A stretch of DNA of 64,000 nucleotides from Verrucomicrobiota bacterium (GTDB taxonomy: Bacteria; Verrucomicrobiota; Verrucomicrobiia; Chthoniobacterales; UBA10450): assembly GCA_041167325.1 (NCBI GenBank), contig JBEEHH010000011.1, forward strand, positions 142,653-206,652, read 5' to 3'. Shown here piece by piece: positions 6,689 through 47,961 of this stretch. The notes under the pieces are model-generated. The model was not told where the DNA came from. It saw nothing but the letters and a program-made list of their open reading frames with translations, and did not search any database. Each line of letters begins with the position of its first letter. The first letter of the stretch is position 1. A program made the position numbers and the translations under genes.

Positions 6689-6724
6689 AAAGTATTTCGT
6701 GCAACCGAAGAGGGACTGAATCCT

Positions 6725-9888: not shown

Positions 9889-10486
9889 TTTTCTTCCCCA
9901 GAAGGATGTGCTTACAGGCCAGAAGGATCTTGGCCATGTAAACCAGCTTTTTTCGGCCAACGAAGTAATACCCATCCTTATGGACAATGTCCCCGCTTTC
10001 CACGAGACGCTGCAACCGCATCTGCATTAGCGCCCCTTCATCATAGATTCCTTCGATTTCCCGGGTTGTCTTTCCCTCAGGAGCGGCAGCGATTTCCGAA
10101 TACATGCGGAGCCTGATAGAAGTATGGCCAAGGTTGGCGAGGCCGAAGTAACAGTAAGCGAGGGCAACGTAGATAGGCCCATTGACGAAAAGACAAGTTA
10201 CCAGCCCCTGCTGTCGGATCTGGGGAATCAATATTTCCAAGGCGATCAAGGCGATGCCTCCCGCTACAAATCCCTCGATAATTGATCGAAAGAACTGGGT
10301 CCCGCCGCGGAGTCGAACTGCGAGCACCTGAGTAGTAACATTGACTCCTACGGCGGCAATTGGCGCCAACAGCGCGCAGTAAAGAGGAAGGTCAGCCGCC
10401 TTTGGAAACAGGCCCATAAAGTCTTCGATAACCAAGGACAACTCGAAAGGCAAGAGAGCCATTTCCAGCCAGAACGTATCTGTCAT
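9875..10486 (-). CDS. Polytopic membrane protein with winged-helix-like C-terminal module (paralog pair, member 2)
   Basis: 203 aa from the ATG at 10486; alternative ATGs lie at 10462 and 10417. Three to four TM helices are followed by ..RLRMYSEIAAAPEGKTTREIEGIYDEGALMQMRLQRLVESGDIVHKDGYYFVGRK... The architecture parallels 10392..10883. Confidence 0.65.
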   Translation of the reverse strand: MTDTFWLEMALLPFELSLVIEDFMGLFPKAADLPLYCALLAPIAAVGVNVTTQVLAVRLRGGTQFFRSIIEGFVAGGIALIALEILIPQIRQQGLVTCLFVNGPIYVALAYCYFGLANLGHTSIRLRMYSEIAAAPEGKTTREIEGIYDEGALMQMRLQRLVESGDIVHKDGYYFVGRKKLVYMAKILLACKHILLGKKSEFE

Positions 10487-26323: not shown

Positions 26324-28507
26324 TCAAAGTTCTTCAATTTCAACCGATGTAAACGAATGGGAGACGAGTCTCGGATCTGTGGCATTCGGGTGGATTGGAT
26401 CGAGCTCGGAGATGATGTCGACCTCGTTGTCTCCCTTATTAAGCGCTAACTCAGATATTTTAATCTCCTTGCGCCCATCGGGCTGACTATCGGTGACAGC
26501 GCTGAGCCGTTCGCCGTGAAATACGACCGTTAGACGGTCATTTTCCCGCAACGGATAACAAATCAGCCTCAAACGAACCCGCACGCCGTTGTCCTGCGAA
26601 TGTAAAATAACCGAAGCGCGCTTGCCATCTTTGCCCGACCACACATGACCGGTTTCTCCAAGAAACCATCCTACGCCCAATTCGGCTCTAACCCTTCTCT
26701 TCGCGGGCCCGACCAGAACAAATCGTTTGTTGAGGGGCGCAACCACAGGTGTTTCGATCGGCTTTACATGAACAATCTCGGCGCGTGAGCGAGCGTTATC
26801 CTCCAAGTCGTATTCCCCAATGAGCTCACTCATTTGATAGTAGCTTTGATGGGCAAGGTAGAGCTTCTTATGGATGAGAAAATATGCAGTCCACAGGGTC
26901 GGCCAATAGACATCCGCCAGGACGTTGATCGACTTCACGCTCCTCGTATGCTCAACACCGCGGAGGACCTCAAATTCTGGTTCGACCCTGGCTAGACGTG
27001 CGGGACGCAGCATAGTGTTATCGGCCATGGCATAACCTCCAATTACAGCCGCCACCACGACTGACTTAACGGCCAGATCAATCCATCTATATCCAGATTT
27101 CACAACCGCCAATAACGCGACAAGAGTAACGCCGAAAAGCGGGAGAAAGAAAACCACCAGCTTAAAAGACTTATAACCTCCCATAATCCCGTCTTGGCGC
27201 CCCATCACAGCCAAAGCGAAACAGCCAGCGTAGACGGTGACGCATGCTAGTCCCAAGGCGACAATGCGCCGAAAACCGTTACGATGAGCAATGTACATCG
27301 AACATATAAATGCGAGCGCCAGGATGATCGATAATGCCAATCGCACGCGCCAATCGCTCCCCACCTCTAAGAGCGGGTTCTTATACATCAGGCCAGCGAT
27401 ATAATCAGGTGCCATCCAGGGGATGAACCATCCCGCTTCAACGGCCGCGTAGATTTTAAATATGGCGAAGAACGGTCCTATGCGCTGCGGTAAGATCAGC
27501 CCGGTTGCCAGGACCGCCAAAATATTCGTCACGGCACAGATTCTGATCCCATGCCAGCTTCTTTCAAGAAATCCTAAGATGATTGAATAGAAAGCCACAA
27601 AAAACCAAACGAAAACCAGCATATGCGGATAATTCAACAGGAGTCCGCATGTAAGTAATGTAAGCAATAGCCACAATTTGAGCTTATCGAAAGGAGCGCT
27701 ATTTTTATCGAGTAGTTTTGTGTTCGTCCAAAATATCAGGAGCGCCAGACCAGTACCTATCACCTGTGGGAAAAAACCTTCCAAGGCAACGAATTGGATC
27801 ATCGGGTGGAACGCGACAAACGCGACGCCAAACAAAGCCGCGCGTGCGCTCAACTGTAAGGTCTCGTTCAGAAGAATGAATGTTACCGCAGCGCCCAGGG
27901 CAGAAAGCAAGAATACGCACAGGCTCAGCTCTTGATGAGGCATCAGCCCCAGTAATTTACCTGTAAAAGCCACGAAAGATGCGGGACCAAAATAGAAATC
28001 CTTTGTGGCCCATTCCAATGGAAGCGGAGAAAGGGCCATCTGTCCGACGAAGCCCTCCATTGAATGGCGGCTAAACTCCGATAAGTATCGGGCCATCGCG
28101 GCGTAAGTTGCGATGTCATTATTCCCCAGGGAGACTGTCGTAAGACTGCCGGCCGGCCAAAAGACAGGAATAGAGACAACGACAAATCCCCCCGCAGATA
28201 TCGCCAACGCGCCTAACGTTGGAATATGCCAGGTAGCCCGTCCCAGCTTCTCATGACGTTTCCTGATCAGCGCTACGACGAGACATACGACCGGTGCAAT
28301 CAGAATTAGTCTGGCGGTCTGGCGGCCAATTTGTCCTCCATAATAGAACACGTACCAACAGGGCAAATTTGCGTAACAATATCCGATCCAAGGCGCGATT
28401 ATGAGTGTGTAGCGCCGCAGCGACTTGGGTAGGAGCAATATCGCAAAACCAAGACCTAACGCGTACAAGACAGCGAGGACGGCCAGCGCGTAGCAGAAAT
28501 ATTGCAT
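26324..28507 (-). CDS. Large polytopic membrane protein (GT-C-like or polymerase-like) with C-terminal beta-sandwich-like module
   Basis: 727 aa with about 14 hydrophobic segments. The C-terminal roughly 130 aa (GVGWFLGETGHVWSGKDGKRASVIL...VVFHGERL...DPRLVSHSFTSVEI) shares its pattern with 3795..4412 and 4419..4964 and with the C-terminus of 6725..8863. Confidence 0.7.
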   Translation of the reverse strand: MQYFCYALAVLAVLYALGLGFAILLLPKSLRRYTLIIAPWIGYCYANLPCWYVFYYGGQIGRQTARLILIAPVVCLVVALIRKRHEKLGRATWHIPTLGALAISAGGFVVVSIPVFWPAGSLTTVSLGNNDIATYAAMARYLSEFSRHSMEGFVGQMALSPLPLEWATKDFYFGPASFVAFTGKLLGLMPHQELSLCVFLLSALGAAVTFILLNETLQLSARAALFGVAFVAFHPMIQFVALEGFFPQVIGTGLALLIFWTNTKLLDKNSAPFDKLKLWLLLTLLTCGLLLNYPHMLVFVWFFVAFYSIILGFLERSWHGIRICAVTNILAVLATGLILPQRIGPFFAIFKIYAAVEAGWFIPWMAPDYIAGLMYKNPLLEVGSDWRVRLALSIILALAFICSMYIAHRNGFRRIVALGLACVTVYAGCFALAVMGRQDGIMGGYKSFKLVVFFLPLFGVTLVALLAVVKSGYRWIDLAVKSVVVAAVIGGYAMADNTMLRPARLARVEPEFEVLRGVEHTRSVKSINVLADVYWPTLWTAYFLIHKKLYLAHQSYYQMSELIGEYDLEDNARSRAEIVHVKPIETPVVAPLNKRFVLVGPAKRRVRAELGVGWFLGETGHVWSGKDGKRASVILHSQDNGVRVRLRLICYPLRENDRLTVVFHGERLSAVTDSQPDGRKEIKISELALNKGDNEVDIISELDPIHPNATDPRLVSHSFTSVEIEEL

Positions 28508-30153: not shown

Positions 30154-30759
30154 ATGCATAACGGTCATGATAATGCGGATGCGCTCATCCGAGAGTTGCG
30201 GGATGAAGTCCGGCGCCGAAAGCAGGGTCTGGGGCCACAAAAACCCGAGCCGCTGATCCAGCCCGAAGCGGTTACGGCTACTTCTTCGCTTGCCCCAGTT
30301 GCGCCGCCGCAGTTACCACCCGCGTCACCACAGATCGAGCCGGTTAAGCCGCTCCAGGGAGCTCGTGGAGCCCTTAATCGTGCACGCTCGAAAAACGCCG
30401 ACGCGAGTCGCTGGCCCCGCTTCCTTCGCGGCTTGCGGCGCAATCAAACGGCCGTCAACGAGTCGCTCATTCGCGCCTTGACCTCCGTTGTGGAAGCGAT
30501 CGAGCGGCTGCGGCAGAGATTTGCCCTGCTTGATCTGCGCGTAGGCGACCAAAGCGTTTGGCACGACGCACAGGAAACAAAAAATCAGCTCGCGCAGGCC
30601 CAAAGCCGGCTGGCGGATGAATCAAGCCCACGGGGCTCATTGCCATCACAGGAGCTTGATTTTCACCTTTTTTGTTGTTCAATTAGCGGCCCTCCAACCA
30701 GAGGTCTTGGCGTCCAGCTGATGATTGAAACTCAAATCCATGCAAAACGGCCACGTTGA
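30154..30759 (+). CDS. N-terminal-domain-only paralog of the downstream coiled-coil methyltransferase (truncated duplicate, possibly a pseudogene)
   Basis: MHNGHDNADALIRELRDEVRRRK and SRWPRFLRGLRRNQTAVNESLIRALTSVVEAIERLRQRFALLD align with MQNGHVDPRELIERVRDEVRKRK and RGWPRFLRAIRRNQAAVNQSLIQGLRALIETGIWMREHFSLLD of the next gene. It has no long coiled coil and no MTase domain. Confidence 0.55.
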   Translation: MHNGHDNADALIRELRDEVRRRKQGLGPQKPEPLIQPEAVTATSSLAPVAPPQLPPASPQIEPVKPLQGARGALNRARSKNADASRWPRFLRGLRRNQTAVNESLIRALTSVVEAIERLRQRFALLDLRVGDQSVWHDAQETKNQLAQAQSRLADESSPRGSLPSQELDFHLFCCSISGPPTRGLGVQLMIETQIHAKRPR

Positions 30760-33031
30760 CCCCAGGGAATTAATCGAGCGCGTTCGCGATGAAGTGCGAA
30801 AGAGAAAGGTGCGCTTGGAGCACCAAGCTCCATTGGTTCCATTGGTCTCCATCGGCGCTGCTGTTGCGGAAACGCCGGCTACCGCACCCGTGGCTGCACC
30901 GTCGGCCAGTCCTTCAGAACCTCTCGCTCCGAGCTTACCCCCACTGGCTGTTTCGTCATCGGCTTCACCACCGGTTCCTAGATCGGAAGAAGGTCATTCC
31001 AAGCCCCGGCTTAAACATGCACTGGTGGCACTTGAACGAGCGGGCAATAAGAACGAACAGGGGCGCGGCTGGCCGCGTTTTTTGAGAGCAATTCGACGAA
31101 ATCAAGCTGCCGTCAACCAATCATTGATCCAAGGCTTGCGAGCACTGATTGAGACGGGGATCTGGATGCGCGAACACTTTTCACTGCTTGATTCGCGGAC
31201 GACCGAACAAGGCCGGTGCGCCCGGGAACAACAAGCCGCGCTCGCCCAGCTCAATCAACGCCAGGAAGAGAGCTATCGTCATGCGGCAGAACAAATGCAG
31301 CGCGCGGAGCAGCTTGGCCAACAGCTTGTCGCGCTAGATTCAAAGCTAAGTAAAGCACTAGAGCGCCAGCATCGGCAGATGAGTGAATTAGATCGGAATT
31401 TTGAAGAACGAAGACGACTGGCGGCGGAACAAGAACAGCGCATCGCGGAACATCAGAACCAGCTCATAGGGCTCAGCTACAAGCTGATCGAGTATCAAAC
31501 TGCAACTGATGCGCGACTAAATGGAGCGGCAGCGCAGCAATTGCAAGATAAGGCGCAGTTACTGGAGAACCAGCGTGCCGCTCGGGAGCACGAGCAGGAG
31601 TTGAAAGGGCTTCGGCAGTTTGTCGCTGAGCAGCAAAAACAAACTGCCGAAGAACAGCGCCAGTTTGAGGAATATCACAAAGAGCTAGAACGGCTGATGC
31701 AACTGGCCGTGCGTTTTGAGAACGAGATTACACTTGGCAGAACCCAGCAGAGCCAGCATCAGCAGGAATTGAACGATCTTCGGCGGTTTGTCGCTGAGCA
31801 GCAAAAACAAACTGCCGAAGAACAGCGCCAGTTTGACGAAAATCAAAAGGTGCTAACGCGGCTAACACAACTGGTCGAGCGTTTTGAGAACGAGATTACG
31901 CTGGGCAAAACCCAGCAGAATCAGCATCAGCAGGAATTGAACGATCTTCAGCATTTTGTCGGTGAGCAGCAAAAACAAACTGCCGAGGAACAGCGCCAGT
32001 TCGACAAAAATGAAAAGGAGCTTTCTGCGATCAGCGCCAACTTAATCGAATATCAAAACGACGCCTTCGCCCGCTTCCATTTGACTGCAGAACGACAGGA
32101 GCAATTGACAATTCAACTCCAGGACATGCAGAACTTCGTTAATGCGCAGGAGCGACAAACAACGGAAGAAAACCGTATCCTGGCGGAGCAGCAACAGCAA
32201 CTGACCGAGATCCGCGCTAGTTTCGAAGAATACCGCGCCAAGAGCGGCCACGGTGCTCCAGCGTTATTGGCCGACATTGCAGTTGTCCGCGACAAAGTAA
32301 ACTCACTGCAAGGCTCTCTTGCCATTGTTCAAGCCCACCTATCTAAGAGGAAATCGCCTGCGCTTTCAAGCCCGGCAGCGCGTTCGCTAAGCGAGGATTT
32401 AAAGGAGCATGAGGCGGATGCCTTCTATCTTGCCTTTGAAAATCAATTCCGTGGAAGTCGCGACGAGATTAAACAGCGGCTTCGTTTTTACGTGCCCCTT
32501 CTCGCGGAAGCCAAGATTGCCACAGGCCATACATCGGCTCTCGACATTGGCTGCGGCCGCGGAGAATGGCTCGAGCTGTTGTTGGAACAGGGTTATGATG
32601 GGCGCGGCGTCGATCTGAACATTTGCATGGTAGAAGAGTGTCGCTCGCGTGGCCTCAATGCCGAGGGTGCTGATGCCATGGGCTACCTTCAAAATCTAGA
32701 TTCCGGCTCACTATCAGTTCTCACCGGCTTTCACATCGTGGAGCATTTAACTTTTGCGCAACTGCTCGACCTGTTTCGGGAAAGCTTTCGGGTTTTGCGA
32801 CGCGACGGCAAAGCGATTTTTGAAACGCCGAATCCCGAATGTGTTAAGGTCCCAACTTACAACTTTTTCTTCGATCCAACTCATCGAAATCCTATTCCAC
32901 AAGAACTCCTTTGCTTCCTTGGGCGCCAGGTTGGGTTCGGTGAAGTTCGAGTGGAACGGTTGCAGCCCTATTTTGAGGACGGTACTCTCAAAGGTTACTT
33001 CGACTACGCCGGGATTTTCACGAAGCGCTAG
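30740..33031 (+). CDS. N-terminal domain + long repeat-containing coiled coil + C-terminal class I SAM methyltransferase
   Basis: 763 aa from the ATG at 30740 (the track start at 30725 is a TTG). The central roughly 400 aa is Q/E/R/L-rich with heptad-like periodicity. The C-terminus has LDIGCGRGEWLELLLEQG and LRRDGKAIFETPNP. Confidence 0.85.
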   Translation: MQNGHVDPRELIERVRDEVRKRKVRLEHQAPLVPLVSIGAAVAETPATAPVAAPSASPSEPLAPSLPPLAVSSSASPPVPRSEEGHSKPRLKHALVALERAGNKNEQGRGWPRFLRAIRRNQAAVNQSLIQGLRALIETGIWMREHFSLLDSRTTEQGRCAREQQAALAQLNQRQEESYRHAAEQMQRAEQLGQQLVALDSKLSKALERQHRQMSELDRNFEERRRLAAEQEQRIAEHQNQLIGLSYKLIEYQTATDARLNGAAAQQLQDKAQLLENQRAAREHEQELKGLRQFVAEQQKQTAEEQRQFEEYHKELERLMQLAVRFENEITLGRTQQSQHQQELNDLRRFVAEQQKQTAEEQRQFDENQKVLTRLTQLVERFENEITLGKTQQNQHQQELNDLQHFVGEQQKQTAEEQRQFDKNEKELSAISANLIEYQNDAFARFHLTAERQEQLTIQLQDMQNFVNAQERQTTEENRILAEQQQQLTEIRASFEEYRAKSGHGAPALLADIAVVRDKVNSLQGSLAIVQAHLSKRKSPALSSPAARSLSEDLKEHEADAFYLAFENQFRGSRDEIKQRLRFYVPLLAEAKIATGHTSALDIGCGRGEWLELLLEQGYDGRGVDLNICMVEECRSRGLNAEGADAMGYLQNLDSGSLSVLTGFHIVEHLTFAQLLDLFRESFRVLRRDGKAIFETPNPECVKVPTYNFFFDPTHRNPIPQELLCFLGRQVGFGEVRVERLQPYFEDGTLKGYFDYAGIFTKR
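31601..32030 (+). repeat. In-frame 168-bp tandem repeat, about 2.5 copies, inside the coiled-coil region
   Basis: Units lie at 31601-31768 and 31769-31936, with a partial unit at 31937 to about 32030. Copies 1 and 2 share an identical stretch of about 50 nt (gtttgtcgctgagcagcaaaaacaaactgccgaagaacagcgccagtttga). The encoded units are L(K/N)(G/D)LR(Q/R)FVAEQQKQTAEEQRQF(E/D)...RFENEITLG(R/K)TQQ(S/N)QHQQE. Confidence 0.9.
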
Positions 33032-33055: not shown

Positions 33056-34639
33056 ATGGACACACGGAAAGGTGCTGGATCGCGACTTGTCGTCGCGGTG
33101 GACCTGATCCCACTGCGGCCGGCAGGTGAAAACGGCGGTCTTAAACCAGCAGTTTTTACTTTGTTACGTGCGGTCGCAGCTGAGGCCCAAGACTCACTCG
33201 CATTTCTTTTTCTGACAAATTCTGCTTCCCACGCACAGGTCCGCGATTTGGCCGGCCCCCAGGATATTCTGATCTGTGTGATTGAAGAGCCGGCATTCCC
33301 GTTTGCTCAACCCACGGATGCAAACCCCATGGAGTCGACCATGCGGTCCAGCGAATTCAAAATCGCGCCGCCGCCGCCTGATTTTCTCCGAACGCTCGGA
33401 GCCGATCTTCTGTATTGCCCGTTTGGAGCAACCACGTTTCACGTGTCGGGTATCCCTACTATCGCTCTGATCGTTGATCTCCTGCACAAAGATTATCCTT
33501 ATACGCTCCCGCAGGAAGAGATCCGTCACCGGGAAACTTACATTGAGGAGACCGTACGCGTTGCAAACAAGCTGCAGTGTATCAGCCGAACCGGGATGGA
33601 ACGATTGGTTGAGCATTACAATGTGCCAGGTGAAAGGCTGTTCTACACGTATCTGCCAATTCATGTTCGTCTAGACCGTGCCTTACACAATTCCAGCCGA
33701 GCCACTGAATCGGAGCGGCCTTTCTTTTACTATCCAGCGAACCTCTGGATTCATAAGAACCACGAAGTTTTACTTGTAAGTTACGCGCTGTATCGACAGC
33801 AAGCAGGTGATGCAGCTTGGGATTTGGTTCTTACCTTTCAAGAAGAGCCCAGGGCGGATGAACTGCGAAGCCTGGCGAAAACTTTGAGCCTTTCCGAGCA
33901 CGTCCGCTTTGCTGGTTTTTTACCCGAAAACGAGCTCAGGTCTATTTGGCGAACGGCAGGGGCACTAATTTTTCCTTCTTTACATGAAGGGTTCGGGATC
34001 CCACTGGTTGAGGCGATGCATTACGGTGTTCCGATCATTACCGGAAGCGAGTTTTCGCTCAAGGAGGTAGCCGGCGATGCGTGCTACCCTATTGATCCGC
34101 GGAAACCGAGATCGATTGCCAGCGCCCTCTTGGAGGTTAGCAAGAATAGCGAACTGCGCGGTGAACTAAGTCGACGCGCTCGGGCGCGGCTTATTCTTTT
34201 TGATTTGGAGAGGGCTGCCGCAGTCCTACTCCGAGAGTTTCACTCGGTCCTTCGAACACGGAATGATTTTCCTCGCGATCCGGTCTATTGCTCTCACCTC
34301 GCGATACTCGCTTGTCCCACTCCGGCATCAGAAGAGACGTGGGAGATCAAGATCGCAGCCGACCTGACGAATTCAGACCAGAAGCTGTCGGTCTATCTGG
34401 ATAATTTTCCGTACGGCAGCTTCGACGAACGTTCGGGGGCGGATGGGTTTTCCTTCGTATGTCGACCGGAAGCCCGCACGCTCGTTGTGCGTCGGAGCGT
34501 TAATCAGAGAATTGAGGGGTCTGCGGAATCTAATGAACGACAAGCTTGTCCGGCTCTGATTACAAAAATCGTCGCTGAGGATCTTCGCGGGCGACAAATT
34601 CTGTTGTACAACAACGAAGAAGCGGATAGAATTGGATGA
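33056..34639 (+). CDS. Glycosyltransferase family 1 (GT4-like) with C-terminal extension
   Basis: 527 aa. Motif FPSLHEGFGIPLVEAMHYGVPIITG. An extra domain of about 120 aa follows the GT-B fold. Confidence 0.85.
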   Translation: MDTRKGAGSRLVVAVDLIPLRPAGENGGLKPAVFTLLRAVAAEAQDSLAFLFLTNSASHAQVRDLAGPQDILICVIEEPAFPFAQPTDANPMESTMRSSEFKIAPPPPDFLRTLGADLLYCPFGATTFHVSGIPTIALIVDLLHKDYPYTLPQEEIRHRETYIEETVRVANKLQCISRTGMERLVEHYNVPGERLFYTYLPIHVRLDRALHNSSRATESERPFFYYPANLWIHKNHEVLLVSYALYRQQAGDAAWDLVLTFQEEPRADELRSLAKTLSLSEHVRFAGFLPENELRSIWRTAGALIFPSLHEGFGIPLVEAMHYGVPIITGSEFSLKEVAGDACYPIDPRKPRSIASALLEVSKNSELRGELSRRARARLILFDLERAAAVLLREFHSVLRTRNDFPRDPVYCSHLAILACPTPASEETWEIKIAADLTNSDQKLSVYLDNFPYGSFDERSGADGFSFVCRPEARTLVVRRSVNQRIEGSAESNERQACPALITKIVAEDLRGRQILLYNNEEADRIG

Positions 34640-35505
34640 GAATAAGCATCGTTATCCCCTCTTACAACCAAGCTCAGTTCTTGCCCTTGACCCTGGACAG
34701 CGTGCTCTCACAGCAATATCCAGATCTTGAAGTCTTGGTCGTCGATGATGGCAGCACCGATGAGAGTCTTTCTGTCCTTAAAAGATACGACGGAAAAATC
34801 GAATACGTCTCGCGGAGAAACGGGGGTCAGCCCAACGCGATCAATTTTGGCTTGGGGCGCGCCACTGGTCAGATACTCGCCTACCTAAATTCAGATGACG
34901 TTTACCTTCCCGGTGCGCTCAAGTGCGTCGTCGATCACTTCAGGACGAATCCGGAGTCGCTCGTTTTGTACGGTGAGGGGTGGCATCTGCACGAAGACGG
35001 CTCGATCATGGAGCGTTATTACAGCGAGCCATGGTCGTATCCACGACTCCTTGATGTCTGCTACCTGTGCCAGCCGGCGGTGTTTTGGCGTCGCGAACTG
35101 AGCGAACGCTTCGGTCTCTTTGATGACTTGCTGCACTACGCAATAGACTACGACTATTGGCTGCGAATTGGCCGCGAAGTTGAATTCTCTTATCTTGAAG
35201 GAACATACTTGGCGGGTTCACGCTTGCACCAAGAAGCAAAGACACTGAAACGGCGCGTTAGTAATCATCATGAAATTCTCGAAGTGGTAATGAGGCACAG
35301 TCCAGAACCGCCGTATCGTTGGCTGATGAACTTGGCCTCGGTGATTGTGGAAGCAGCGCGACAACGAAATGGCGGTGTCGAAATGGATGAAATGACCCGA
35401 CGCGGTTTACTCGTTGAAGCCGTGTTGGAAAACGCCGACGCCTACCAGATACCTCTAAGCGTCGACTTTTTGAAGACGCTAGAGCAGATGATGCCGTCGA
35501 TGTGA
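34636..35505 (+). CDS. Glycosyltransferase family 2
   Basis: 289 aa. ISIVIPSYNQAQFLPLTLDSVLSQQYPDLEVLVVDDGSTDES. ATGA overlap with the upstream gene. Confidence 0.9.
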   Translation: MRISIVIPSYNQAQFLPLTLDSVLSQQYPDLEVLVVDDGSTDESLSVLKRYDGKIEYVSRRNGGQPNAINFGLGRATGQILAYLNSDDVYLPGALKCVVDHFRTNPESLVLYGEGWHLHEDGSIMERYYSEPWSYPRLLDVCYLCQPAVFWRRELSERFGLFDDLLHYAIDYDYWLRIGREVEFSYLEGTYLAGSRLHQEAKTLKRRVSNHHEILEVVMRHSPEPPYRWLMNLASVIVEAARQRNGGVEMDEMTRRGLLVEAVLENADAYQIPLSVDFLKTLEQMMPSM

Positions 35506-35506
35506 C

Positions 35507-36616
35507 ATGAAGATCGGGTTTGACGTCGCACAGACTTGCACTCAACGCGCCGGTTGCGCCTGGTATGCGGATTCTCTTATCCACGCCATGGTGGATGTCG
35601 CTCCCGACAACGAATACTTTCTTTATCATCAATTCGGCACCTGGATTAACGAAGACACGGGCACTGGCACCGTAATTAAGCATCCCTCCGCGCATCTGCC
35701 TTTCCTGGGGATGGATGCCGACCAGGCACGCGCGCGCTGGAACACCGGTGGACTGGTCGGCGATCCGGAAATTGTCCAGAGCAACTCTTTTCAAGTCGTT
35801 CCAACCGGTTCCGCCAAATTAGTGTTCGTCATCTACGACATTAGCTTTTGGATCTATCCCGAGTTTACGACTGAAGCGAATCGGCTTAACTGTCAGTACG
35901 GTGTGCTCAAGGCGCTCAGCGCGGCGGACGGCCTGATTTTCATTTCCGAGTCTGGTCGAAATGAATTTGACTCTCTGTTCCCGGGATTGCTGGAACGGAA
36001 GGGCAAACATTTCGCGGCCATACCGCTGGCTTCGCGCCTCCCGGTGCCAAGCCAATCAAATAAGACGACAGAAAGCTTCTGGCTGGCGGTAGGCTCGATG
36101 GAGCCCAGAAAAAACTATGACGCAATCTTTTCCGCTATCGACCTGTATTGGCGTAGGAGCAAGAACCCTTCTCCAGTGTGGATAGCGGCAGCAGCGGCCG
36201 GATGGAAAAATGAAGCTATGAAGACACGGGCCCGCGATCTCGAAGCGAAAGGCCGCATCCGTATCCTGGGTTACGTGGAGGAACGACGGCTTGCCACCCT
36301 CTACCGGGACTCGTTAGGTCTTATTTTTCCGAGTTGGTATGAAGGCTTTGGGTTGCCAGCCCTGGAGGCGATGCAATGCGGATGCCCGGTGATTTGCAGC
36401 AATCGCACCAGCCTGCCCGAGGTAGGTGGAGACGTCCCCCTTTACATAGATCCGGCCCAGCCCGAATCAATCTGCGATGCCATGATCCTTTTAGAAGAAG
36501 ACCCGTCAAGGCGCCAACGGTGCCGTGAAGCCGGCATGGATCGCGCCAAGAAATTCAGTTGGAACCAGACGGCCGAGGCCACGCTGGAGTTCTACCGCAA
36601 GATCCTCGAAAGTTAA
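35507..36616 (+). CDS. Glycosyltransferase family 1 (GT4-like)
   Basis: 369 aa. Motif FPSWYEGFGLPALEAMQCGCPVICS. Confidence 0.9.
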   Translation: MKIGFDVAQTCTQRAGCAWYADSLIHAMVDVAPDNEYFLYHQFGTWINEDTGTGTVIKHPSAHLPFLGMDADQARARWNTGGLVGDPEIVQSNSFQVVPTGSAKLVFVIYDISFWIYPEFTTEANRLNCQYGVLKALSAADGLIFISESGRNEFDSLFPGLLERKGKHFAAIPLASRLPVPSQSNKTTESFWLAVGSMEPRKNYDAIFSAIDLYWRRSKNPSPVWIAAAAAGWKNEAMKTRARDLEAKGRIRILGYVEERRLATLYRDSLGLIFPSWYEGFGLPALEAMQCGCPVICSNRTSLPEVGGDVPLYIDPAQPESICDAMILLEEDPSRRQRCREAGMDRAKKFSWNQTAEATLEFYRKILES

Positions 36617-43867: not shown

Positions 43868-46800
43868 ATGAAGCTCTCCGTGCCGAAACTGCAGATTTGG
43901 TTGGTTCTCTTGCTGGCCGCAATTTTTGCGGGCGCCGTTGCCCTCATCGTCTCGGCGCTCACGCCAGGATTTCATCTCGAGATCACCATGACCTCGTCGC
44001 GAGGTGGCACGGCTCGCGCTTTCTATGACATCGGCGCAGGCATCAATGAGCGACACTCCGCTCGCACCGCGTTGCAGAGCGGTCCCAGAATCCTGTATCG
44101 TTTTCCTCTTCCGGAAGGTGACTTCCGGGCGATTCAATTTCATCCAGCGGATCGCGGTAACTGTGACATTGTCCTTCACAGCGTTAGGATCGTGGATCTG
44201 TTTGGGCGCCCGGTCAGGGATTTCTCTACCAGGGACCTGGTCGCCGGCCATGGCATCTCTCGCTTTGAAGTGGCTGGTAGCGAAGTGAAACTCACCCTCG
44301 GATCTGGAGACACCGACTCGACACTTATCCTAAGTCCCGGCTTAGCGTTATCGTTGCGCTCGGCCGGTGCCAGCAGGTGGATTTATGGCCTGAGGCTTTT
44401 CTTGATCTCATTTCTCCCGCTGGCTCTGGCGGGCATCGCCTGGCTGGTCTTCGCGCCTCCACTTTGGCGGAAACTAGAACCGAGCTATTCGAGAATTGCC
44501 GAATGGGGCCGCGGTCATCCTCGCCGGGCGATACTCATTCTCTCGTTCATGAGCGTCATCGTCAGTTGTTATCCTGTCGTATTTCTCGGCCGAAGCTTTG
44601 TTTCCGCAAACATCGTTCCCATGCTTTATCCCACCCCTCCGACCTTGCCGGGCCATCGCGACACGCGTTCCGAAAACTTCAACGGGGCAGATAATGGAGC
44701 CATGATGTGGTATTTCGTTCCAATTACCTTCGTCCAAAGCCGGGCTCTGGCTCGGGACGTCGAACTGCCCCTTTGGAACCGGTATAATTCAGGCGGGGTC
44801 ACTTTGCTTGGGCAAGGCCAGTCCATGTTCGGAGATCCCTTGCACATGCTGGTGGTTGCCGCGGCGGGAGAGGCCTGGGCCTGGGACCTTAAATTTCTCC
44901 TGGCGAAGGTTCTATTTTGTTGGGGAATCGGTCTTGCAGTCTACGCCTCTTCCCGGCATTTGACTGTAGCGCTGTTATTGGCCTGCTCTTCAGCGTTTAT
45001 CGGGTTCTTCGCCTACCGGTTCAACCATCCGGCGTTCTTTAGTCTGTGTTACGCGCCATGGCTTCTGTTGAGTTGGATTGAGATAACACGTGCTGCCACC
45101 GCGCGAGCTGGCGCTCGCTGGATACTAGTGCTTCTCCTGGCGACCTGGGCAGAGTTAAACAGCGGCACGGCAAAGGAAGCTTACATGCTACTTTTAAACC
45201 TGCATGGGTGCGGTCTCTTAATCTTCCTTCTGTCGCCGACCACTCACCGGAACCGAAAGCTGATCCATCTTAGCATCGCCGGGACAGCCTTCCTTCTTAT
45301 CTCTGCTCCCGTGTGGCTCACCTTCTTCGATGCATTGCGGAAGGCTCGTGTTATGTACAAAGAAGCCGCGTTGGTTTTCCAAATCCAGCCAGGTCTACTC
45401 ATAGGCCTCTTTGACGACATCTTCCATCGCGTGCTCAATCCGGGCAACTGGGTTTACAACCCGTCCGCGAATTTTCTCATCCTTCTTGGATGTATATTTG
45501 CGATAATTTACTTCAGAAGCCTTGTCCGGAATCGGATTTTCCTGGGAGTAGGTTTGGCAGCGCTCTGCTCGCTTGCGCTGGTCTTCGGGGTGGTCCCTCC
45601 ACAGTTGATCGAACGGATCCCAATGATCAAAAACATCTGGCACGTGGACAATACTTTTTCCTGCGGCTTGATTATTGAGCTGGTGGTGCTGGCGGGATTT
45701 GGCTTCAAGTTCTATTTGGAACGTGGAATTCGGAGAGGGTGGAAGATGGATCTTACCCTGCTCACTTTGGTGCTCCTTACGATCTTCGGCTCCTATCTCG
45801 GCCTGACGCACGCTTGGCAGCGACCTCCAAATAGCTTTGCGCCGCTGGCGCCAACAGGAGTGATGAACGCTTTCTTTTACCTTTACAGCTTTTCCCTCAT
45901 GGTGGCATTGGTGGCCCTGCCCTGGCTCGTCCGAGCCCTGGTTCGACGATCTTCTTTTGCCTTCTTGGTCGGGCCAATTGTTCTCCTGGCTCTAATTTGT
46001 TTGCACTGGCGGCATGGGTTTCAAATGAACACTGGGGTAGCTCAAATCGATGACTATGTCGTCAACCCTGCCCCACGGATCGACCTGCGCGCCGGTTCGC
46101 TCGCCATGGACTTCATCCAGAATCAGCCGGGCGTTTATCGCACCGTCGGCGTCGGCAGTGTCTTGTTTGCGGGCTTTAATGGCATTCCCGGTCTGGAATC
46201 ACTCTCCGGCCCGGATGCGCTTATGAATCCCTACTACCATCAGTTACTTCTCTCCGCTGGGATTACACAGGACTGGGGCTGGAGATGGGTCGTCGAACGG
46301 GAGAAAGTGAAAACCGCTCTCCCACTCTACAATTTGCTTAATGTCCGATATTTTCTGGACATGCCTATGAGGGGTCGGGCCCCCCTCTTTGAGGGCGAGC
46401 CCAAACGGCTTGATTTAGAAATTTCGCAAAATGAAGGAGCGTGGCCTCGCGCGTTCTTTGCCGGCGACGTCCGGAGTTACGATCGGGTGGACGAGTTTGT
46501 GCAGATGCTGCGTCAGGAGGATTCCCATCCATTTGCCGCCGTTCAAAAAGGAGAAAGGACTGGCCTTACAGATGAAGCGTTAATTTTTGGTAACTCAGTT
46601 AGCGCAGCACCTTCACTGGTCGTTCCGGCTCGCGACTATCAATTGACCAATAACACTACGACTTTCACTATCGACGCGCCCGGTCCAGGTGTGGCGGTTC
46701 TGACAGAAGCGTATCTCGCCGGCGACTTCAGGGTAAGTGTTAACGGAGCAGCCGCGGATTACTTTCGCGTTAATCACGCCTTCCGCGGCGTCGCTCTCCC

Positions 46801-46963
46801 GGCCGCCGGCAAATATGTTATTTCCTATTCGTATTGGCCGAAACATTTCACGGTCTCTTTGCTCATGGCCGCGTTTGGCGCATTGCTGCTCGGCGGATGG
46901 ATGATAGTTACCTTTCGGCGCGCATTGCCCGCACGTGAAGACGATTTGCTCGCCCCAGGTTAA
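43868..46963 (+). CDS. Very large polytopic membrane protein, YfhO-like GT-C candidate
   Basis: 1031 aa with an N-terminal extracytoplasmic domain of about 150 aa. About 15 or more TM segments; loop motif ELPLWNRYNSGGVTLLGQGQSMFGDPLHML. The C-terminal soluble domain ends in a final TM helix. Confidence 0.65.
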   Translation: MKLSVPKLQIWLVLLLAAIFAGAVALIVSALTPGFHLEITMTSSRGGTARAFYDIGAGINERHSARTALQSGPRILYRFPLPEGDFRAIQFHPADRGNCDIVLHSVRIVDLFGRPVRDFSTRDLVAGHGISRFEVAGSEVKLTLGSGDTDSTLILSPGLALSLRSAGASRWIYGLRLFLISFLPLALAGIAWLVFAPPLWRKLEPSYSRIAEWGRGHPRRAILILSFMSVIVSCYPVVFLGRSFVSANIVPMLYPTPPTLPGHRDTRSENFNGADNGAMMWYFVPITFVQSRALARDVELPLWNRYNSGGVTLLGQGQSMFGDPLHMLVVAAAGEAWAWDLKFLLAKVLFCWGIGLAVYASSRHLTVALLLACSSAFIGFFAYRFNHPAFFSLCYAPWLLLSWIEITRAATARAGARWILVLLLATWAELNSGTAKEAYMLLLNLHGCGLLIFLLSPTTHRNRKLIHLSIAGTAFLLISAPVWLTFFDALRKARVMYKEAALVFQIQPGLLIGLFDDIFHRVLNPGNWVYNPSANFLILLGCIFAIIYFRSLVRNRIFLGVGLAALCSLALVFGVVPPQLIERIPMIKNIWHVDNTFSCGLIIELVVLAGFGFKFYLERGIRRGWKMDLTLLTLVLLTIFGSYLGLTHAWQRPPNSFAPLAPTGVMNAFFYLYSFSLMVALVALPWLVRALVRRSSFAFLVGPIVLLALICLHWRHGFQMNTGVAQIDDYVVNPAPRIDLRAGSLAMDFIQNQPGVYRTVGVGSVLFAGFNGIPGLESLSGPDALMNPYYHQLLLSAGITQDWGWRWVVEREKVKTALPLYNLLNVRYFLDMPMRGRAPLFEGEPKRLDLEISQNEGAWPRAFFAGDVRSYDRVDEFVQMLRQEDSHPFAAVQKGERTGLTDEALIFGNSVSAAPSLVVPARDYQLTNNTTTFTIDAPGPGVAVLTEAYLAGDFRVSVNGAAADYFRVNHAFRGVALPAAGKYVISYSYWPKHFTVSLLMAAFGALLLGGWMIVTFRRALPAREDDLLAPG

Positions 46964-46965
46964 AT

Positions 46966-47961
46966 ATGCTAACGGCGACTTACACGCCTGGCTGGAGCGA
47001 AGTTTTCATCTCTGGAGGAGCTGGCTTTATCGGCAGCCATCTCTTGCGGTCATTGCTTGGGGATCCCAGGGTGAAGCGGACCGTCATTTTCGACAACTTC
47101 ACTTCCGGGCGACTATCGTATCTCGAAGAAGTTTCGAGTGACGCCCGCGTGCAGATCGTAAACGCGGACTTGAAGGATGTCGCGGCCGTTACTTCGGCGA
47201 TGGCGGGCTGTGATACGATCTTTCACCTCGCGGCCAACCCGGACATTGCCAAGGCAGTCACGCAACCCGACATCGACTTCTGGGAAGGAACCTATCTCAC
47301 CCAGAATATTCTCGAAGCGATGCGGATCAACAACGTCCGCAAGATTCTGTATACCTCCGGCAGCGGCGTTTACGGGGAAAACCCTGGGGTAGCGTTCGCG
47401 GAGGATTACGGCCCAAGCATCCCCATCTCGACTTATGGCGCAAGCAAGCTCGCGTGCGAAGGCCTTATCGCCGCTTACTGTCATATGTTCGATCTTTGCG
47501 GGCGGGTGTTTCGCTTTGCCAATGTAGTGGGCGCCCGGCAAACCCACGGCGTCGGCTATGATTTTGTCCGTCGCCTGTGTTCCGATCCCACCCGGCTGCG
47601 GATCCTTGGCGATGGCAGCCAGAAGAAGAGTTACATTCATGTCGAGGATGTCCTGGCCGCGATTCGGCTGGCGGACGCGCGTGCCACCAGGAGATACGAT
47701 GTCTTCAATGTAGCTACAGGTGATTACATCACGGTTCGCGAGATTGCCGACCTGGCCGTGAAGGTAAGTGGTATTCCGGTCGGAGAGACCACTTATGAAT
47801 TTACAGGAGGCGACCGTGGCTGGAAAGGTGATGTGCCGATCGTGCAATTTGATTGCTCGAAGATCGAAGCCCTCGGGTGGCGGTGCCAGCGGACCTCGGC
47901 CGAAGCTGTCACCGGCGCGATGAAAACTATGCGGATGGAGTTAGATCATGAGCGACGTTAA
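46966..47961 (+). CDS. Extended SDR, NAD-dependent nucleotide-sugar epimerase (paralog of 37018..37986)
   Basis: VFISGGAGFIGSHLLRSLL, YGASK, and GGDRGWKGDVP. Confidence 0.85.
   Translation: MLTATYTPGWSEVFISGGAGFIGSHLLRSLLGDPRVKRTVIFDNFTSGRLSYLEEVSSDARVQIVNADLKDVAAVTSAMAGCDTIFHLAANPDIAKAVTQPDIDFWEGTYLTQNILEAMRINNVRKILYTSGSGVYGENPGVAFAEDYGPSIPISTYGASKLACEGLIAAYCHMFDLCGRVFRFANVVGARQTHGVGYDFVRRLCSDPTRLRILGDGSQKKSYIHVEDVLAAIRLADARATRRYDVFNVATGDYITVREIADLAVKVSGIPVGETTYEFTGGDRGWKGDVPIVQFDCSKIEALGWRCQRTSAEAVTGAMKTMRMELDHERR

What the first reader, a model, noticed from the sequence alone, without database searches (positions are those of the whole stretch)
31601..32030. In-frame 168-bp (8-heptad) tandem repeats in a coiled-coil methyltransferase: candidate length-tunable molecular ruler / chain terminator
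The 763-aa product of 30740..33031 has three parts: an N-terminal domain of about 150 aa, about 400 aa of Q/E/R/L-rich helical sequence, and a C-terminal class I SAM methyltransferase. Inside the helical part the DNA carries about 2.5 head-to-tail copies of a 168-bp unit (31601-31768, 31769-31936, partial 31937 to about 32030). Copies 1 and 2 share an identical stretch of about 50 nt, which is a good substrate for slippage or unequal recombination.

168 bp equals 56 codons, which is exactly 8 heptads. Gain or loss of a unit would therefore preserve both the reading frame and the coiled-coil register. More diverged copies of the same module flank the repeats (the LIEYQ..., ..FV.(A/E)Q(Q/E).QT.EE.R.. 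pattern recurs).

Established precedent: in E. coli O9a, WbdD (a methyltransferase-kinase with a coiled coil) caps the O-antigen, and the length of its coiled coil sets the chain length. Here the domain order is inverted and there is no kinase. At about 0.15 nm rise per residue, one unit would change the rod by roughly 8 nm.

Hypothesis: this protein methyl-caps the glycan made by this locus, and repeat copy number tunes the modal chain length.
Basis: partly seen in the sequence, partly recalled or inferred. Interest (0 to 1): 0.75.

Follow-up and report, generated by a model that had tools for sequence, protein, structure and literature searches.

The report
Repeat-extended coiled-coil glycan methyltransferase
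A sugar-polymer gene cluster of a soil Verrucomicrobium encodes a methyltransferase on a very long helical rod that contains a recent in-frame 168-bp (8-heptad) tandem repeat; it belongs to a large, mostly unstudied family that probably caps glycan chains, and whether repeat number really varies in nature is still open.

Summary
There are 2.6 head-to-tail copies of a 168-bp unit (31587/31593-32022, 87% matches, no indels) inside a 763-aa protein built as conserved N-terminal region, about 400-aa heptad-periodic helix, then a C-terminal class I SAM methyltransferase.

The protein is not a WbdD relative: the methyltransferase lineage differs, there is no kinase, and the domain order is inverted. 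It belongs to a large cross-phylum family (6015 clusters at E<=1e-30) with the same N-motif / heptad rod / C-terminal methyltransferase layout. In 53 of 79 species genomes a family member lies within 10 kb of a Wzt-type ABC ATPase, 48 with the cap-binding C-terminal module. In its own clade the gene always heads a GT4-GT2-GT4 operon. All recent tandem repeats in the clade's rods are multiples of 7 residues (21, 28, 56, 63).

Two points count against it. No ABC transporter, Wzx, Wzy or Wzz lies in the roughly 75-kb locus. The only copy-number difference found (2.6 vs 4.6 units) is between assemblies that are otherwise 100% identical over 47 kb, and two other short-read assemblies break inside the array. 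The window's count may therefore be an assembly collapse. Capping and length tuning remain inference.

The parts
30740..33031 (+). Gene for the 763-aa coiled-coil methyltransferase. An otherwise identical 875-aa version exists in another assembly.
   Evidence: ORF listing; homologues start MQNGH; Pfam methyltransferase domains; the 875-aa P0001 equals this protein plus 2 x 56 aa.
30740..30826 (+). N-terminal conserved helix motif (aa 1-29, MQNGHxDPxxLIxRVRxEVRKRK). It is amphipathic with net charge +3 and is the counterpart of the 'NPEI(N/D)VDELMxKIRxEVxKR' motif of the wider family. I infer it to be an anchoring or docking element.
   Evidence: Invariant columns M1 N3 G4 L11 R16 E18 R20 R22 K23; helix 8-28 in the model; the motif recurs at the N-termini of relatives in many phyla; hydrophobic moment 0.37.
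30827..31003 (+). Pro/Ala/Ser-rich disordered linker (aa 30-88), variable in length among homologues.
   Evidence: pLDDT <50 and no secondary structure at 29-88; homologue P0003 carries 26-aa tandem repeats in this linker.
31004..31189 (+). Second conserved N-terminal element (aa 89-150), including the (R/K)WP(R/D)(F/K)L motif and RRNQxxxN. It is basic and amphipathic and marks the start of the long helix.
   Evidence: Invariant W111 R119 R120 N121 Q122 N126; 'R(T)KWPDK' counterparts in cyanobacterial relatives; hydrophobic moment 0.52, charge +4.
31076..32344 (+). Helical rod (aa 113-535), Q/E/L/A/R-rich and heptad-periodic, in 3-4 register blocks separated by LIEYQ..DAR elements. It would be about 58-63 nm long if one continuous coiled coil.
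   Evidence: AlphaFold2 helices 113-334, 343-501 and 507-535 at moderate confidence; register analysis and permutation tests; composition and length arithmetic.
31587..32022 (+). Tandem array of the 168-bp (56-codon, 8-heptad) unit: copies at 31587-31754 and 31755-31922, plus a partial copy at 31923-32022.
   Evidence: TRF; gap-free repeat families D1 and D2; unit identity matrix.
31618..31668 (+). 51-nt stretch identical to 31786-31836 in the next unit. It is the crossover site implied by the hybrid unit seen in the 4.6-copy allele.
   Evidence: Longest identical run. Hybrid unit L2 matches unit 2 before this stretch and unit 1 after it, and it appears in two independent samples.
31786..31836 (+). 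Second copy of the identical 51-nt stretch.
32387..33031 (+). C-terminal class I SAM-dependent methyltransferase module (aa 550-763): a two-helix lead-in carrying FYLAFENQFRG, the SAM-binding loop DIGCGRGEWL, and the conserved ETPNPE and DPTHRNP motifs.
   Evidence: Pfam; constant 201-202 aa from the FYLAFEN motif to the C-terminus in 19 homologues; invariant columns; model pLDDT 82 and pTM 0.82; best solved match 3dli_A at E=1e-46 and TM 0.80.
30154..30759 (+). 201-aa ORF that is the 5' remnant of a different allele of the same gene (P0010/P0013/L006 type). It overlaps the start of the intact gene and is probably a scar of allelic replacement rather than a functional part.
   Evidence: 76% aa identity to the N-terminus of P0013 over 147 aa; 84% DNA identity over 703 nt to locus L006; only 39% identity to the intact downstream gene; no Pfam or NCBIfam hit.
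33056..36616 (+). Three glycosyltransferase genes directly downstream and co-directional: GT4 (33056-34639), GT2 (34636-35505) and GT4 (35507-36616). This trio follows the coiled-coil methyltransferase gene in every clade locus examined and is the candidate polymerase partner.
   Evidence: Pfam; conserved order in L001-L006.

Best explanation
The gene encodes a member of a large family of cytoplasmic glycan-assembly methyltransferases. The layout is a short conserved basic N-terminal region, a heptad-periodic helical rod of very variable length, and a constant 200-aa C-terminal class I SAM methyltransferase.

Shown here: the architecture, the periodicity, the family, its genomic company, and the recombinational behaviour of the repeat.

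Inferred mechanism: the N-terminal motifs hold the protein at the membrane or on the GT4-GT2-GT4 polymerase encoded just downstream. The rod holds the methyltransferase tens of nanometres away. A polyprenol-linked glycan that has grown long enough to reach the enzyme is O-methylated at its non-reducing end, and this stops extension. This is the logic demonstrated for WbdD and WbbB, with the polypeptide running in the opposite direction.

The 168-bp array is a recent in-frame duplication of an 8-heptad (about 8.3 nm) rod module. Unequal crossing-over in the 51-nt identical core adds or removes whole modules without breaking frame or heptad register. A sister assembly carries exactly the product expected from that event: a hybrid unit plus an extra copy, 4.6 units in all. 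Rod length, and by inference glycan length, can therefore change in quantised steps.
For: Architecture and periodicity:
- Pfam methyltransferase domains at aa 601-738.
- Helices 113-501 in the full-length model.
- One heptad register held across 25 heptads, p<=2e-4.
- No TM segment in the protein.

Family:
- 19 close homologues of 555-1064 aa share a constant methyltransferase module.
- 6015 clusters match at E<=1e-30, and the module is C-terminal in 148 of the top 150.
- The N-terminal motifs are conserved across phyla.
- N-terminal extensions have a median of 278 aa with long single-register runs.

Genomic company:
- The gene precedes GT4-GT2-GT4 in all clade loci.
- Distant relative P0019 abuts a Wzt carrying Wzt_C.
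- 53 of 79 species loci hold a Wzt-like ATPase within 10 kb, and 48 of these align into the Wzt_C region.
- JGI names the 875-aa version 'O-antigen chain-terminating methyltransferase'.

Heptad quantisation:
- Tandem repeats in clade rods have periods 56, 28, 28, 21, 21 and 63.
- Length differences of 28, 77, 112 and 175 aa occur between close pairs.
- 9 of 17 repeat-bearing relatives in other phyla have periods of 7n.

Recombination: the 4.6-copy allele has L1 = unit 1, L2 = a hybrid with its junction in the 51-nt core, L3 = unit 2, and L4 = unit 2 with one SNP. The hybrid is present in two samples.

Precedent: a coiled coil is the marker of terminator proteins (PMC11231755), and WbdD coil insertions or truncations change modal length (PMC5082667).
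Against: - No Wzm/Wzt, and no other recognisable exporter, lies in the roughly 75-kb locus or within 10 kb in five sister loci of the clade. The hallmark partner of capped-glycan systems is therefore missing locally.
- The locus holds at least 12 other methyltransferase genes. Methylation here need not be terminal.
- The rod's core is rather polar (Q, T, G, H at many core positions), and the full-length model is only moderately confident (pLDDT 61, pTM 0.31). Rigidity, oligomer state and full extension are unproven.
- Older indels between homologues are not all multiples of 7 (5, 8, 11, 15, 32, 38, 78 aa).
- The only copy-number difference is between assemblies that are identical elsewhere, and it may be an assembly artefact.
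- P. aeruginosa PA5457/PA5459 are methyltransferases that resemble WbdD of serotype O8, yet they do not act as WbdD-like length regulators (PMC3560663).
- There are no biochemical data for any member of this family that I could find.
Confidence: 0.55

Rival explanations
1. The protein is a decorating methyltransferase, not a terminator. It O-methylates internal residues or a precursor of the glycan. The coiled coil serves only to oligomerise it or to scaffold it with the glycosyltransferases, and its length is nearly neutral. Repeats come and go because long coiled coils tolerate any whole-heptad indel.
For: - The locus is full of methyltransferases, and no Wzt with a cap-binding module is nearby.
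- Rod length varies about three-fold among close relatives with no accompanying change in the operon, as expected for a weakly constrained spacer.
- Differences between units 1 and 2 are mostly non-synonymous (15 vs 6 codons).
- Older indels are not heptad-quantised.
- PA5457/PA5459 show that terminator-like methyltransferases need not set chain length (PMC3560663).
Against: - The methyltransferase module family co-occurs with Wzt ATPases carrying the cap-recognition module in 48 of 79 species loci. That association is specific to capped-glycan systems.
- A rod of 400-700 aa is costly for a mere dimerisation device.
- The conserved terminal motifs at the end opposite the enzyme suggest a defined polarity.
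Confidence: 0.3
2. The 2.6-copy array in the window is an assembly collapse. The real genome has at least 4.6 copies, and there is no evidence of natural copy-number variation. The repeat is then a fixed, recently expanded part of the rod rather than a tuning device.
For: - The window is 100.000% identical to JGI contig Ga0467078_0000002 over 13.7 + 22 + 11.5 kb. The array is the only difference.
- In sample 3300044839 two contigs (602 kb and 1.09 Mb) end and start inside the array and overlap by exactly 127 nt. That is the signature of a k=127 de Bruijn assembly broken by the repeat.
- A Logan contig ends 61 nt into unit 1.
- The window's unit order (1, 2, partial) is the shortest path through a graph of the 4.6-copy array.
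- Short-read assemblers usually under-count tandem copies (general knowledge).
Against: A mixed population with both alleles would give the same graph breaks. The 4.6-copy allele is exactly what unequal crossing-over would make from the 2.6-copy allele, so both may exist. Neither possibility can be excluded without reads.
Confidence: 0.55
3. The helical region is a flexible tether or a single alpha-helix-like linker rather than a rigid multi-stranded coiled coil. It raises the local concentration of the enzyme near its partners without measuring anything.
For: - The core is polar: Q/T/G/H at many a/d positions and only 23-24% hydrophobic residues.
- Each unit contains an ITLG(R/K)TQQ segment with Gly in a core position.
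- The register shifts at the LIEYQ..DAR elements.
- Helix confidence in the model is moderate and there is a break at 335-342.
Against: A significant a/d hydrophobic pattern is kept in one register for 25 heptads. New tandem repeats are restricted to 7n residues in all six clade arrays. A register-free single helix would not need that restriction.
Confidence: 0.15

Closest known systems
WbdD of E. coli O9a / Klebsiella O3 (and the methyltransferase-only WbdD of O8/O5)
   Same: Both are cytoplasmic enzymes that combine a class I methyltransferase with an extended coiled coil and are encoded with GT4 glycosyltransferases. In WbdD the coil is a trimeric ruler of about 20 nm, and insertions or truncations change O-antigen modal length (PMC5082667, PMC3482155). 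The proposed working principle here is the same.
   Different: - The domain order is reversed: the methyltransferase is C-terminal here.
- There is no kinase domain.
- The methyltransferase is not specifically related. WbdD is absent from PDB profile hits up to E about 0.1 and from the Foldseek top 50, and the best match is 3dli.
- The rod is about 400-535 aa, which would be about 60-80 nm against about 20 nm.
- The conserved N-terminal motifs replace WbdD's C-terminal amphipathic membrane helix.
- No wzm/wzt lies in the locus.
Other coiled-coil terminator proteins of ABC-transporter-dependent O-antigen assembly: WbbB (Klebsiella O12), ORF6 of O7 (methyltransferase-kinase-coil-GT2-GT2), ORF7 of O4 (PMC11231755)
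   Same: A terminator module sits at one end of a coiled coil, and polymerase modules are either in the same protein or recruited to it. The coil is regarded as the diagnostic marker of the strategy. The ORF6-O7 methyltransferase also resembles CgnL (7pd7), which appears among the structural neighbours here.
   Different: All characterised examples carry the terminator at the N-terminus and are encoded next to wzm/wzt. None is reported to carry near-identical tandem repeats in the coil.
Archaeoglobus fulgidus SAM-dependent methyltransferase, PDB 3DLI
   Same: It is the closest solved structure to the methyltransferase module: profile E=1.3e-46 over the whole module, 32% identity, TM 0.80.
   Different: It is a stand-alone 240-aa protein from structural genomics with no coiled coil and no known substrate. 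It gives no functional information.
PA5457 / PA5459 of the Pseudomonas aeruginosa common polysaccharide antigen cluster (PMC3560663)
   Same: They are methyltransferases in an ABC-transporter-dependent glycan locus and were suspected of terminal methylation.
   Different: They lack the membrane-interaction and glycosyltransferase-interaction domains of WbdD. Over-expression does not shorten chains as WbdD does. Homology to the protein studied here was not tested.

Membership tests
Class I SAM-dependent methyltransferases | Rossmann-like alpha/beta fold with a Gly-rich SAM-binding loop; matches curated Pfam models above their cut-offs | tested here: met
   Methyltransf_23 40.4 bits (cut-off 27), Methyltransf_25 37.1 (27), Methyltransf_11 37.0 (21.2). 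DIGCGRG loop invariant. Model pLDDT 82; hundreds of class I methyltransferases in Foldseek.
N-motif / heptad rod / C-terminal methyltransferase family (unnamed; 3DLI-like module) | 200-aa module with F(Y/L)xAFE(N/D)xFRG ... GCGRGEWL ... ETPNPE ... DPTH(R)NP, placed at the C-terminus | tested here: met
   All motifs are invariant in alignment A1. The module is C-terminal in 19 of 19 close homologues and in 148 of the top 150 representatives.
N-motif / heptad rod / C-terminal methyltransferase family (unnamed; 3DLI-like module) | Conserved N-terminal helix (DELMxKIRxEVxxR-like) and (R/K)WP motif followed by a heptad-periodic extension | tested here: met
   LIERVRDEV at aa 11-19 and GWPRFLR at aa 110-116. 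The same motifs occur in Cyanobacteria, Proteobacteria, Acidobacteria and others. Heptad runs in the N-terminal extensions.
WbdD family (E. coli O9a/O8 chain terminators) | Methyltransferase domain homologous to that of WbdD | tested here: not met
   WbdD chains are not among the PDB sequence or profile hits listed (best 60, E up to about 0.1) nor in the Foldseek top 50 for either model. Only the generic fold is shared.
WbdD family (E. coli O9a/O8 chain terminators) | Kinase domain (O9a type) and order N-catalytic / coiled coil / C-terminal membrane-binding helix | tested here: not met
   No kinase family in Pfam or NCBIfam. The catalytic domain is C-terminal.
Capped-glycan systems (coiled-coil terminator plus Wzm/Wzt with a carbohydrate-binding module; hallmarks as summarised in PMC11231755 and, from my own knowledge, Mann et al. 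2019 Glycobiology 29:822, which I could not read here) | Terminator-type enzyme fused to an extended coiled coil | tested here: met
   Terminator activity itself is not shown.
Capped-glycan systems (coiled-coil terminator plus Wzm/Wzt with a carbohydrate-binding module) | ABC transporter whose Wzt carries a C-terminal cap-binding module, encoded with the terminator | tested here: not met
   No ORF combining Walker A and the ABC signature exists in the window. No ABC_tran, ABC2_membrane or Wzt_C hit appears in Pfam scans or precomputed annotation from about 7 kb left of the window to about 9.5 kb right of it. The feature is met for relatives elsewhere, 48 of 79 loci. The rest of this genome could not be searched.
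Capped-glycan systems (coiled-coil terminator plus Wzm/Wzt with a carbohydrate-binding module) | Polymerising glycosyltransferases encoded alongside and recruited by the coiled-coil protein | tested here: inconclusive
   The adjacent GT4-GT2-GT4 trio is conserved. Physical recruitment is not testable here.
Capped-glycan systems (coiled-coil terminator plus Wzm/Wzt with a carbohydrate-binding module) | Terminal (non-reducing end) modification that stops polymerisation; coil length sets modal chain length | not testable with these tools
   This needs glycan structure analysis and genetics.
Contingency / length-variable repeat loci | Repeat copy number differs among genomes of one strain or population | tested here: inconclusive
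   2.6 vs 4.6 copies between assemblies with 0 mismatches in 47 kb of flanks. Two further assemblies break in the array. Collapse and true heterogeneity cannot be separated.

The most novel reading that the evidence does not exclude
In this clade the ruler domain of a glycan chain terminator evolves by unequal crossing-over between near-identical heptad-multiple modules (21, 28, 56, 63 aa). Rod length, and with it the modal length of a surface polysaccharide, then varies in quantised steps between strains and perhaps within one population. That would be a natural, reversible 'length dial' for a glycan. The terminator would be of inverted topology and work without a locally encoded Wzm/Wzt exporter.
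Probability: 0.25. Interest if true: 0.7.

Novelty: new variant of a known kind. Interest (0 to 1): 0.45.

Why it matters
Polysaccharide length has no template. The coiled-coil ruler of WbdD and WbbB is the best-understood way bacteria measure it, and it has been tested only by engineered insertions and deletions in a few enterobacterial proteins.

This family offers thousands of natural rods, from about 90 to more than 700 residues, attached to one constant enzyme module in the opposite polarity. In this clade the length changes are recent, still near-identical, whole-heptad duplications. If rod length tracks glycan length, the family is a ready-made natural experiment on the ruler model and a toolbox for glycoengineering defined chain lengths.

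A practical lesson also follows. Short-read assemblies break or collapse exactly in these arrays, so database lengths of such proteins are unreliable.

Tried and rejected
- WbdD homology: PDB sequence and profile searches and two Foldseek searches gave only generic class I methyltransferases. I rejected membership.
- NCBIfam: no specific family. There were only sub-threshold methyltransferase hits and a weak SMC hit caused by the coiled coil.
- Search for an exporter: Pfam on essentially all ORFs >=150 aa, a Walker A / ABC-signature scan, and walking 7 kb left and 9.5 kb right of the window found nothing.
- The two large membrane proteins (727 and 1031 aa) gave no Pfam, NCBIfam or PDB sequence match. 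Their role stays open; 'GT-C-like' rests on topology alone.
- Counting copy number in more assemblies:
  - The metagenome-contig scan for the unit marker found 0 matches, because that collection lacks these samples.
  - Exact-protein look-ups for P0002 and for window ORF 76-1608 found nothing.
  - Look-ups through the neighbouring genes worked but returned only broken arrays.
- Papers not held: Mann et al. 2019 (Glycobiology), Whitfield et al. 2020 (JBC review) and Hagelueken et al. 2015 (NSMB). A search for 'chain-terminating methyltransferase' gave 0 papers.
- The idea that all length differences in the rod are multiples of 7 is rejected. It holds for recent tandem repeats and some pairs, but not for all older indels.
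- The idea that the 201-aa upstream ORF is a functional N-domain-only decoy is considered unlikely. It is absent from the other clade loci and looks like a remnant of a replaced allele.


Full report
**1. The observation**

The + strand ORF 30740-33031 (ATG; an in-frame TTG lies at 30725) encodes 763 aa. Homologues begin MQNGH, which fixes the ATG as the start.

- Tandem Repeats Finder reports one array, 31593-32022, with period 168, 2.6 copies, 87% matches, no indels and score 650. It is the only array scoring >=60 in the whole window.
- In gap-free register the copies are 31587-31754, 31755-31922 and 31923-32022.
- Units 1 and 2 are 85% identical and share an exact 51-nt run, 31618-31668 = 31786-31836.
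- Pfam places Methyltransf_23/25/11 at aa 601-738.
- A full-length AlphaFold2 model (mean pLDDT 61, pTM 0.31, so only secondary structure is usable) gives a helix at 8-28, disorder at 29-88, helices at 89-106, 113-334, 343-501 and 507-535, then an alpha/beta domain.
- The helical part is 50% Q+E+R+L with a single proline.
- A sliding-register analysis shows one heptad register from about aa 253 to 441, right through the repeats. Other registers hold at 155-259, 442-518 and 498-546, and the shifts fall at the LIEYQ..DAR elements.
- Over aa 267-441 the hydrophobic fraction is 0.68 and 0.40 at two positions three apart and <=0.24 elsewhere, with permutation p<=2e-4. The two flanking blocks are also significant.

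**2. Copy number**

The nearest database protein, P0001, is 875 aa and comes from JGI metagenome 3300044816, contig Ga0467078_0000002 (1.89 Mb). It is the window protein plus exactly 112 aa, which is 2 x 56.

Its locus (L001) and two further stretches of the same contig (L091, L088) are 100.000% identical to the window over 13.7 kb, 22 kb and 11.5 kb. The array is the only difference.

The 4.6-copy array reads as follows:
- L1 = unit 1.
- L2 = a hybrid. It is like unit 2 up to the 51-nt core and like unit 1 after it, with one unit-2-type base.
- L3 = unit 2.
- L4 = unit 2 with one SNP.
- L5 = the partial unit.

This is the product expected from unequal crossing-over in the 51-nt core, followed by one more duplication.

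There is a technical alternative.
- In sample 3300044839 a 602-kb contig ends 123 nt into L2, and a 1.09-Mb contig starts 4 nt before L2. The two overlap by exactly 127 nt. That is a k=127 de Bruijn assembly broken by the repeat.
- A Logan assembly of SRR24887168 ends 61 nt into unit 1.
- The window's arrangement is the shortest path through such a graph.

Two conclusions follow. The hybrid unit and the longer array are real, because they are seen in two samples. The window's 2.6 copies may be either a collapse or a co-existing allele. I put the collapse at slightly better than even.

**3. What the protein belongs to**

The 19 close homologues are all from Verrucomicrobiota/Chthoniobacterales metagenomes and run from 555 to 1064 aa.

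- The distance from the FYLAFENQFRG motif to the C-terminus is 201-202 aa in all of them. All length variation therefore lies in the N-terminal linker and the rod.
- A profile of the methyltransferase module found at least 544 related loci among GTDB species genomes, in Cyanobacteria, Proteobacteria, Acidobacteria, Bacteroidota/Ignavibacteria, Nitrospirae, Firmicutes and an archaeon.
- The same profile found 6015 clusters at E<=1e-30 among 1.84 billion representatives, and the module is C-terminal in 148 of the best 150.
- The N-terminal extensions have a median of 278 aa (range 90-545), are poor in Pro and Gly, and hold single heptad registers for 45-223 aa.
- Two short motifs at the far N-terminus are shared across phyla. 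One is 'NPEI(N/D)VDELMxKIRxEVxKR'; here it reads DPRELIERVRDEVRKRK. The other is 'R(T)KWPDK'; here it reads RGWPRFLR.

By sequence and by fold, the module's nearest solved relative is the uncharacterised A. fulgidus protein 3DLI (E=1.3e-46; TM 0.80). WbdD does not appear among the listed sequence or profile hits or in the Foldseek top 50. NCBIfam has no specific model.

**4. Genomic company**

In the window the gene heads a co-directional string that starts with GT4 (33056-34639), GT2 (34636-35505) and GT4 (35507-36616). Sugar-nucleotide enzymes, a methyltransferase-GT2 fusion, a 1031-aa membrane protein, a GT2 with a C-terminal TM domain, more methyltransferases and heptose-pathway genes follow. 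Divergently upstream lie a DAO oxidoreductase, a 727-aa membrane protein, epimerases and an HldE-like enzyme.

The trio GT4-GT2-GT4 follows the gene in every clade locus I fetched.

The whole locus spans about 75 kb. Its left end is about 2 kb beyond the window, next to copper-resistance genes. Its right end is about 8 kb beyond the window. It contains no ABC transporter, no Wzx, no Wzy and no Wzz by Pfam, and no ORF combines Walker A with an ABC signature.

Outside the clade the picture differs.
- The most distant homologue, P0019, abuts a Wzt with ABC_tran + Wzt_C.
- In 53 of 79 species loci a Wzt-like ATPase lies within the fetched +-10 kb, usually 0-4 kb away.
- 49 of those are >=380 aa, and 48 align into the Wzt_C region.
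- Half of the 26 loci without one are short contigs.

According to PMC11231755, an extended coiled coil is the characteristic marker of terminator proteins in ABC-transporter-dependent assembly. From my own knowledge of Mann et al. 2019, which I could not read here, a Wzt with a carbohydrate-binding module is the other hallmark. The module family therefore keeps the right company in general, but not locally in this clade.

**5. Heptad quantisation**

Recent tandem repeats (>=70% identical) in the rods of clade members have these periods:
- 56 aa (window, P0001)
- 28 aa (P0004, P0013)
- 21 aa (P0005/P0009; P0008; P0004)
- 63 aa (P0008)

That makes six arrays, all multiples of 7. At a chance of 1 in 7 each, this is about 1e-5 if the arrays are independent.

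- Between close pairs, anchor-to-anchor distances differ by 28, 77, 112 and 175 aa, but also by 5, 8, 11, 11, 15, 32, 38 and 78 aa.
- In other phyla, 9 of 17 repeat-bearing N-terminal extensions have periods of 14, 28, 35, 42 or 84 aa. Others have 11 or 22 (a hendecad-like period), 18, 31, 39 or 78, or 40 aa.

Whole-heptad duplication is thus the dominant recent mode of length change, as expected for a register-constrained coiled coil. It is not an absolute rule over longer times, probably because the rod is segmented at the LIEYQ..DAR elements.

**6. Mechanism**

Shown: the architecture, the periodicity, the family, the operon context, and the recombinational origin of the array.

Inferred:
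- The basic, amphipathic N-terminal elements (hydrophobic moments 0.37-0.52, net charge +3 to +4) hold the protein at the membrane or on the polymerase.
- The rod would be about 58-63 nm with 2.6 units and about 79 nm with 4.6 units if it is one continuous coiled coil. Each unit adds 8.3 nm. It keeps the methyltransferase away from the polymerase.
- Methylation of the non-reducing end stops growth. WbdD sets the precedent (PMC5082667, PMC3482155).

Weak points:
- The core is polar and there is a Gly-containing segment in each unit.
- The oligomer state is unknown.
- No exporter is encoded locally.
- The locus has many other methyltransferases.
- PA5457/PA5459 are a precedent for terminator-like methyltransferases that do not regulate length (PMC3560663).

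**7. Comparison and novelty**

Functionally the closest systems are the coiled-coil terminators WbdD, WbbB and the Klebsiella O4 and O7 proteins (PMC11231755). The protein fails the membership tests for the WbdD family: methyltransferase lineage, kinase, domain order and a linked Wzm/Wzt.

It is a clear member of a large, apparently uncharacterised family with reversed polarity. JGI's pipeline already labels the 875-aa form 'O-antigen chain-terminating methyltransferase', so the functional idea is not new.

Three things appear to be new:
- very long rods;
- near-identical whole-heptad tandem modules with direct evidence of unequal crossing-over;
- a clade in which the gene has no locally encoded ABC exporter.

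I rate it a new variant of a known kind, of moderate interest.

**8. Side observations**

- The 201-aa ORF at 30154-30759 is the 5' remnant of a different allele of the same gene. It is 76% identical to the N-terminus of P0013, shares 84% DNA identity over 703 nt with locus L006, and is only 39% identical to the intact gene. The gene was therefore replaced by recombination.
- Two conserved polytopic membrane proteins (727 and 1031 aa) have no family assignment.
- Two methyltransferase genes at 2986-3636 and 55442-56095 are inverted paralogues at 80.5% DNA identity.

Noticed in passing
window 30154-30759 (+): A 201-aa ORF overlapping the start of the coiled-coil methyltransferase gene is the 5' remnant of a different allele of that gene. 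It is 76% aa identical to the N-terminus of P0013 and shares 84% DNA identity over 703 nt, including the intergenic region, with locus L006. It is only 39% identical to the intact gene downstream. It looks like a scar of allelic replacement by recombination.
   Followed up: yes
window 26324-28507 (-) and 43868-46963 (+): Two polytopic membrane proteins conserved across the clade (727 aa and 1031 aa). Each has about 12-14 predicted TM segments plus a soluble C-terminal part, and neither has any Pfam, NCBIfam or PDB sequence match. Their topology resembles GT-C or YfhO-type periplasmic glycosyltransferases, and a GT2 with a C-terminal TM domain lies at 47948-49141. They may be an unclassified family.
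   Followed up: partly
whole window, plus L091 (left) and L088 (right): The glycan locus spans about 75 kb. It holds at least 12 methyltransferase genes, nucleotide-heptose pathway genes (SIS, HAD, GHMP kinase, NTP transferase, HldE-like), split transketolase genes, a WbuC cupin, WbqC, and an acyl-CoA ligase with a carrier protein. It has no recognisable exporter (ABC or Wzx), polymerase (Wzy) or co-polymerase (Wzz).
   Followed up: partly
window 5252-8863 (-): An MBOAT (AlgI-like) gene lies next to a 712-aa protein with an AlgX SGNH domain, followed by an LPG_synthase_TM protein (8872-9987). The set looks like a periplasmic O-acetylation module for the exported glycan.
   Followed up: no
window 2986-3636 vs 55442-56095: Two small methyltransferase genes, 52 kb apart and in inverted orientation, share 80.5% DNA identity. 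They are paralogues within the same locus.
   Followed up: no
L094, L096 (JGI 3300044839); L097 (Logan SRR24887168): Megabase-scale contigs of short-read assemblies end and start inside the 168-bp array with a 127-nt overlap, and a Logan contig ends 61 nt into unit 1. Database lengths of coiled-coil proteins with such repeats are therefore unreliable.
   Followed up: yes
P0003 (homologue), aa 47-109: 26-aa tandem repeats in the Pro/Ala-rich linker between the two N-terminal conserved elements. The linker can therefore also expand by tandem duplication, and here the period is not a multiple of 7.
   Followed up: no
L089, L090 (other samples): Related strains at 99.4% and 99.8% DNA identity to the right end of the window occur in other samples (SRR24887270, JGI 3300044841). 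Strain-level comparison of the array would be possible if contigs spanning it existed.
   Followed up: no
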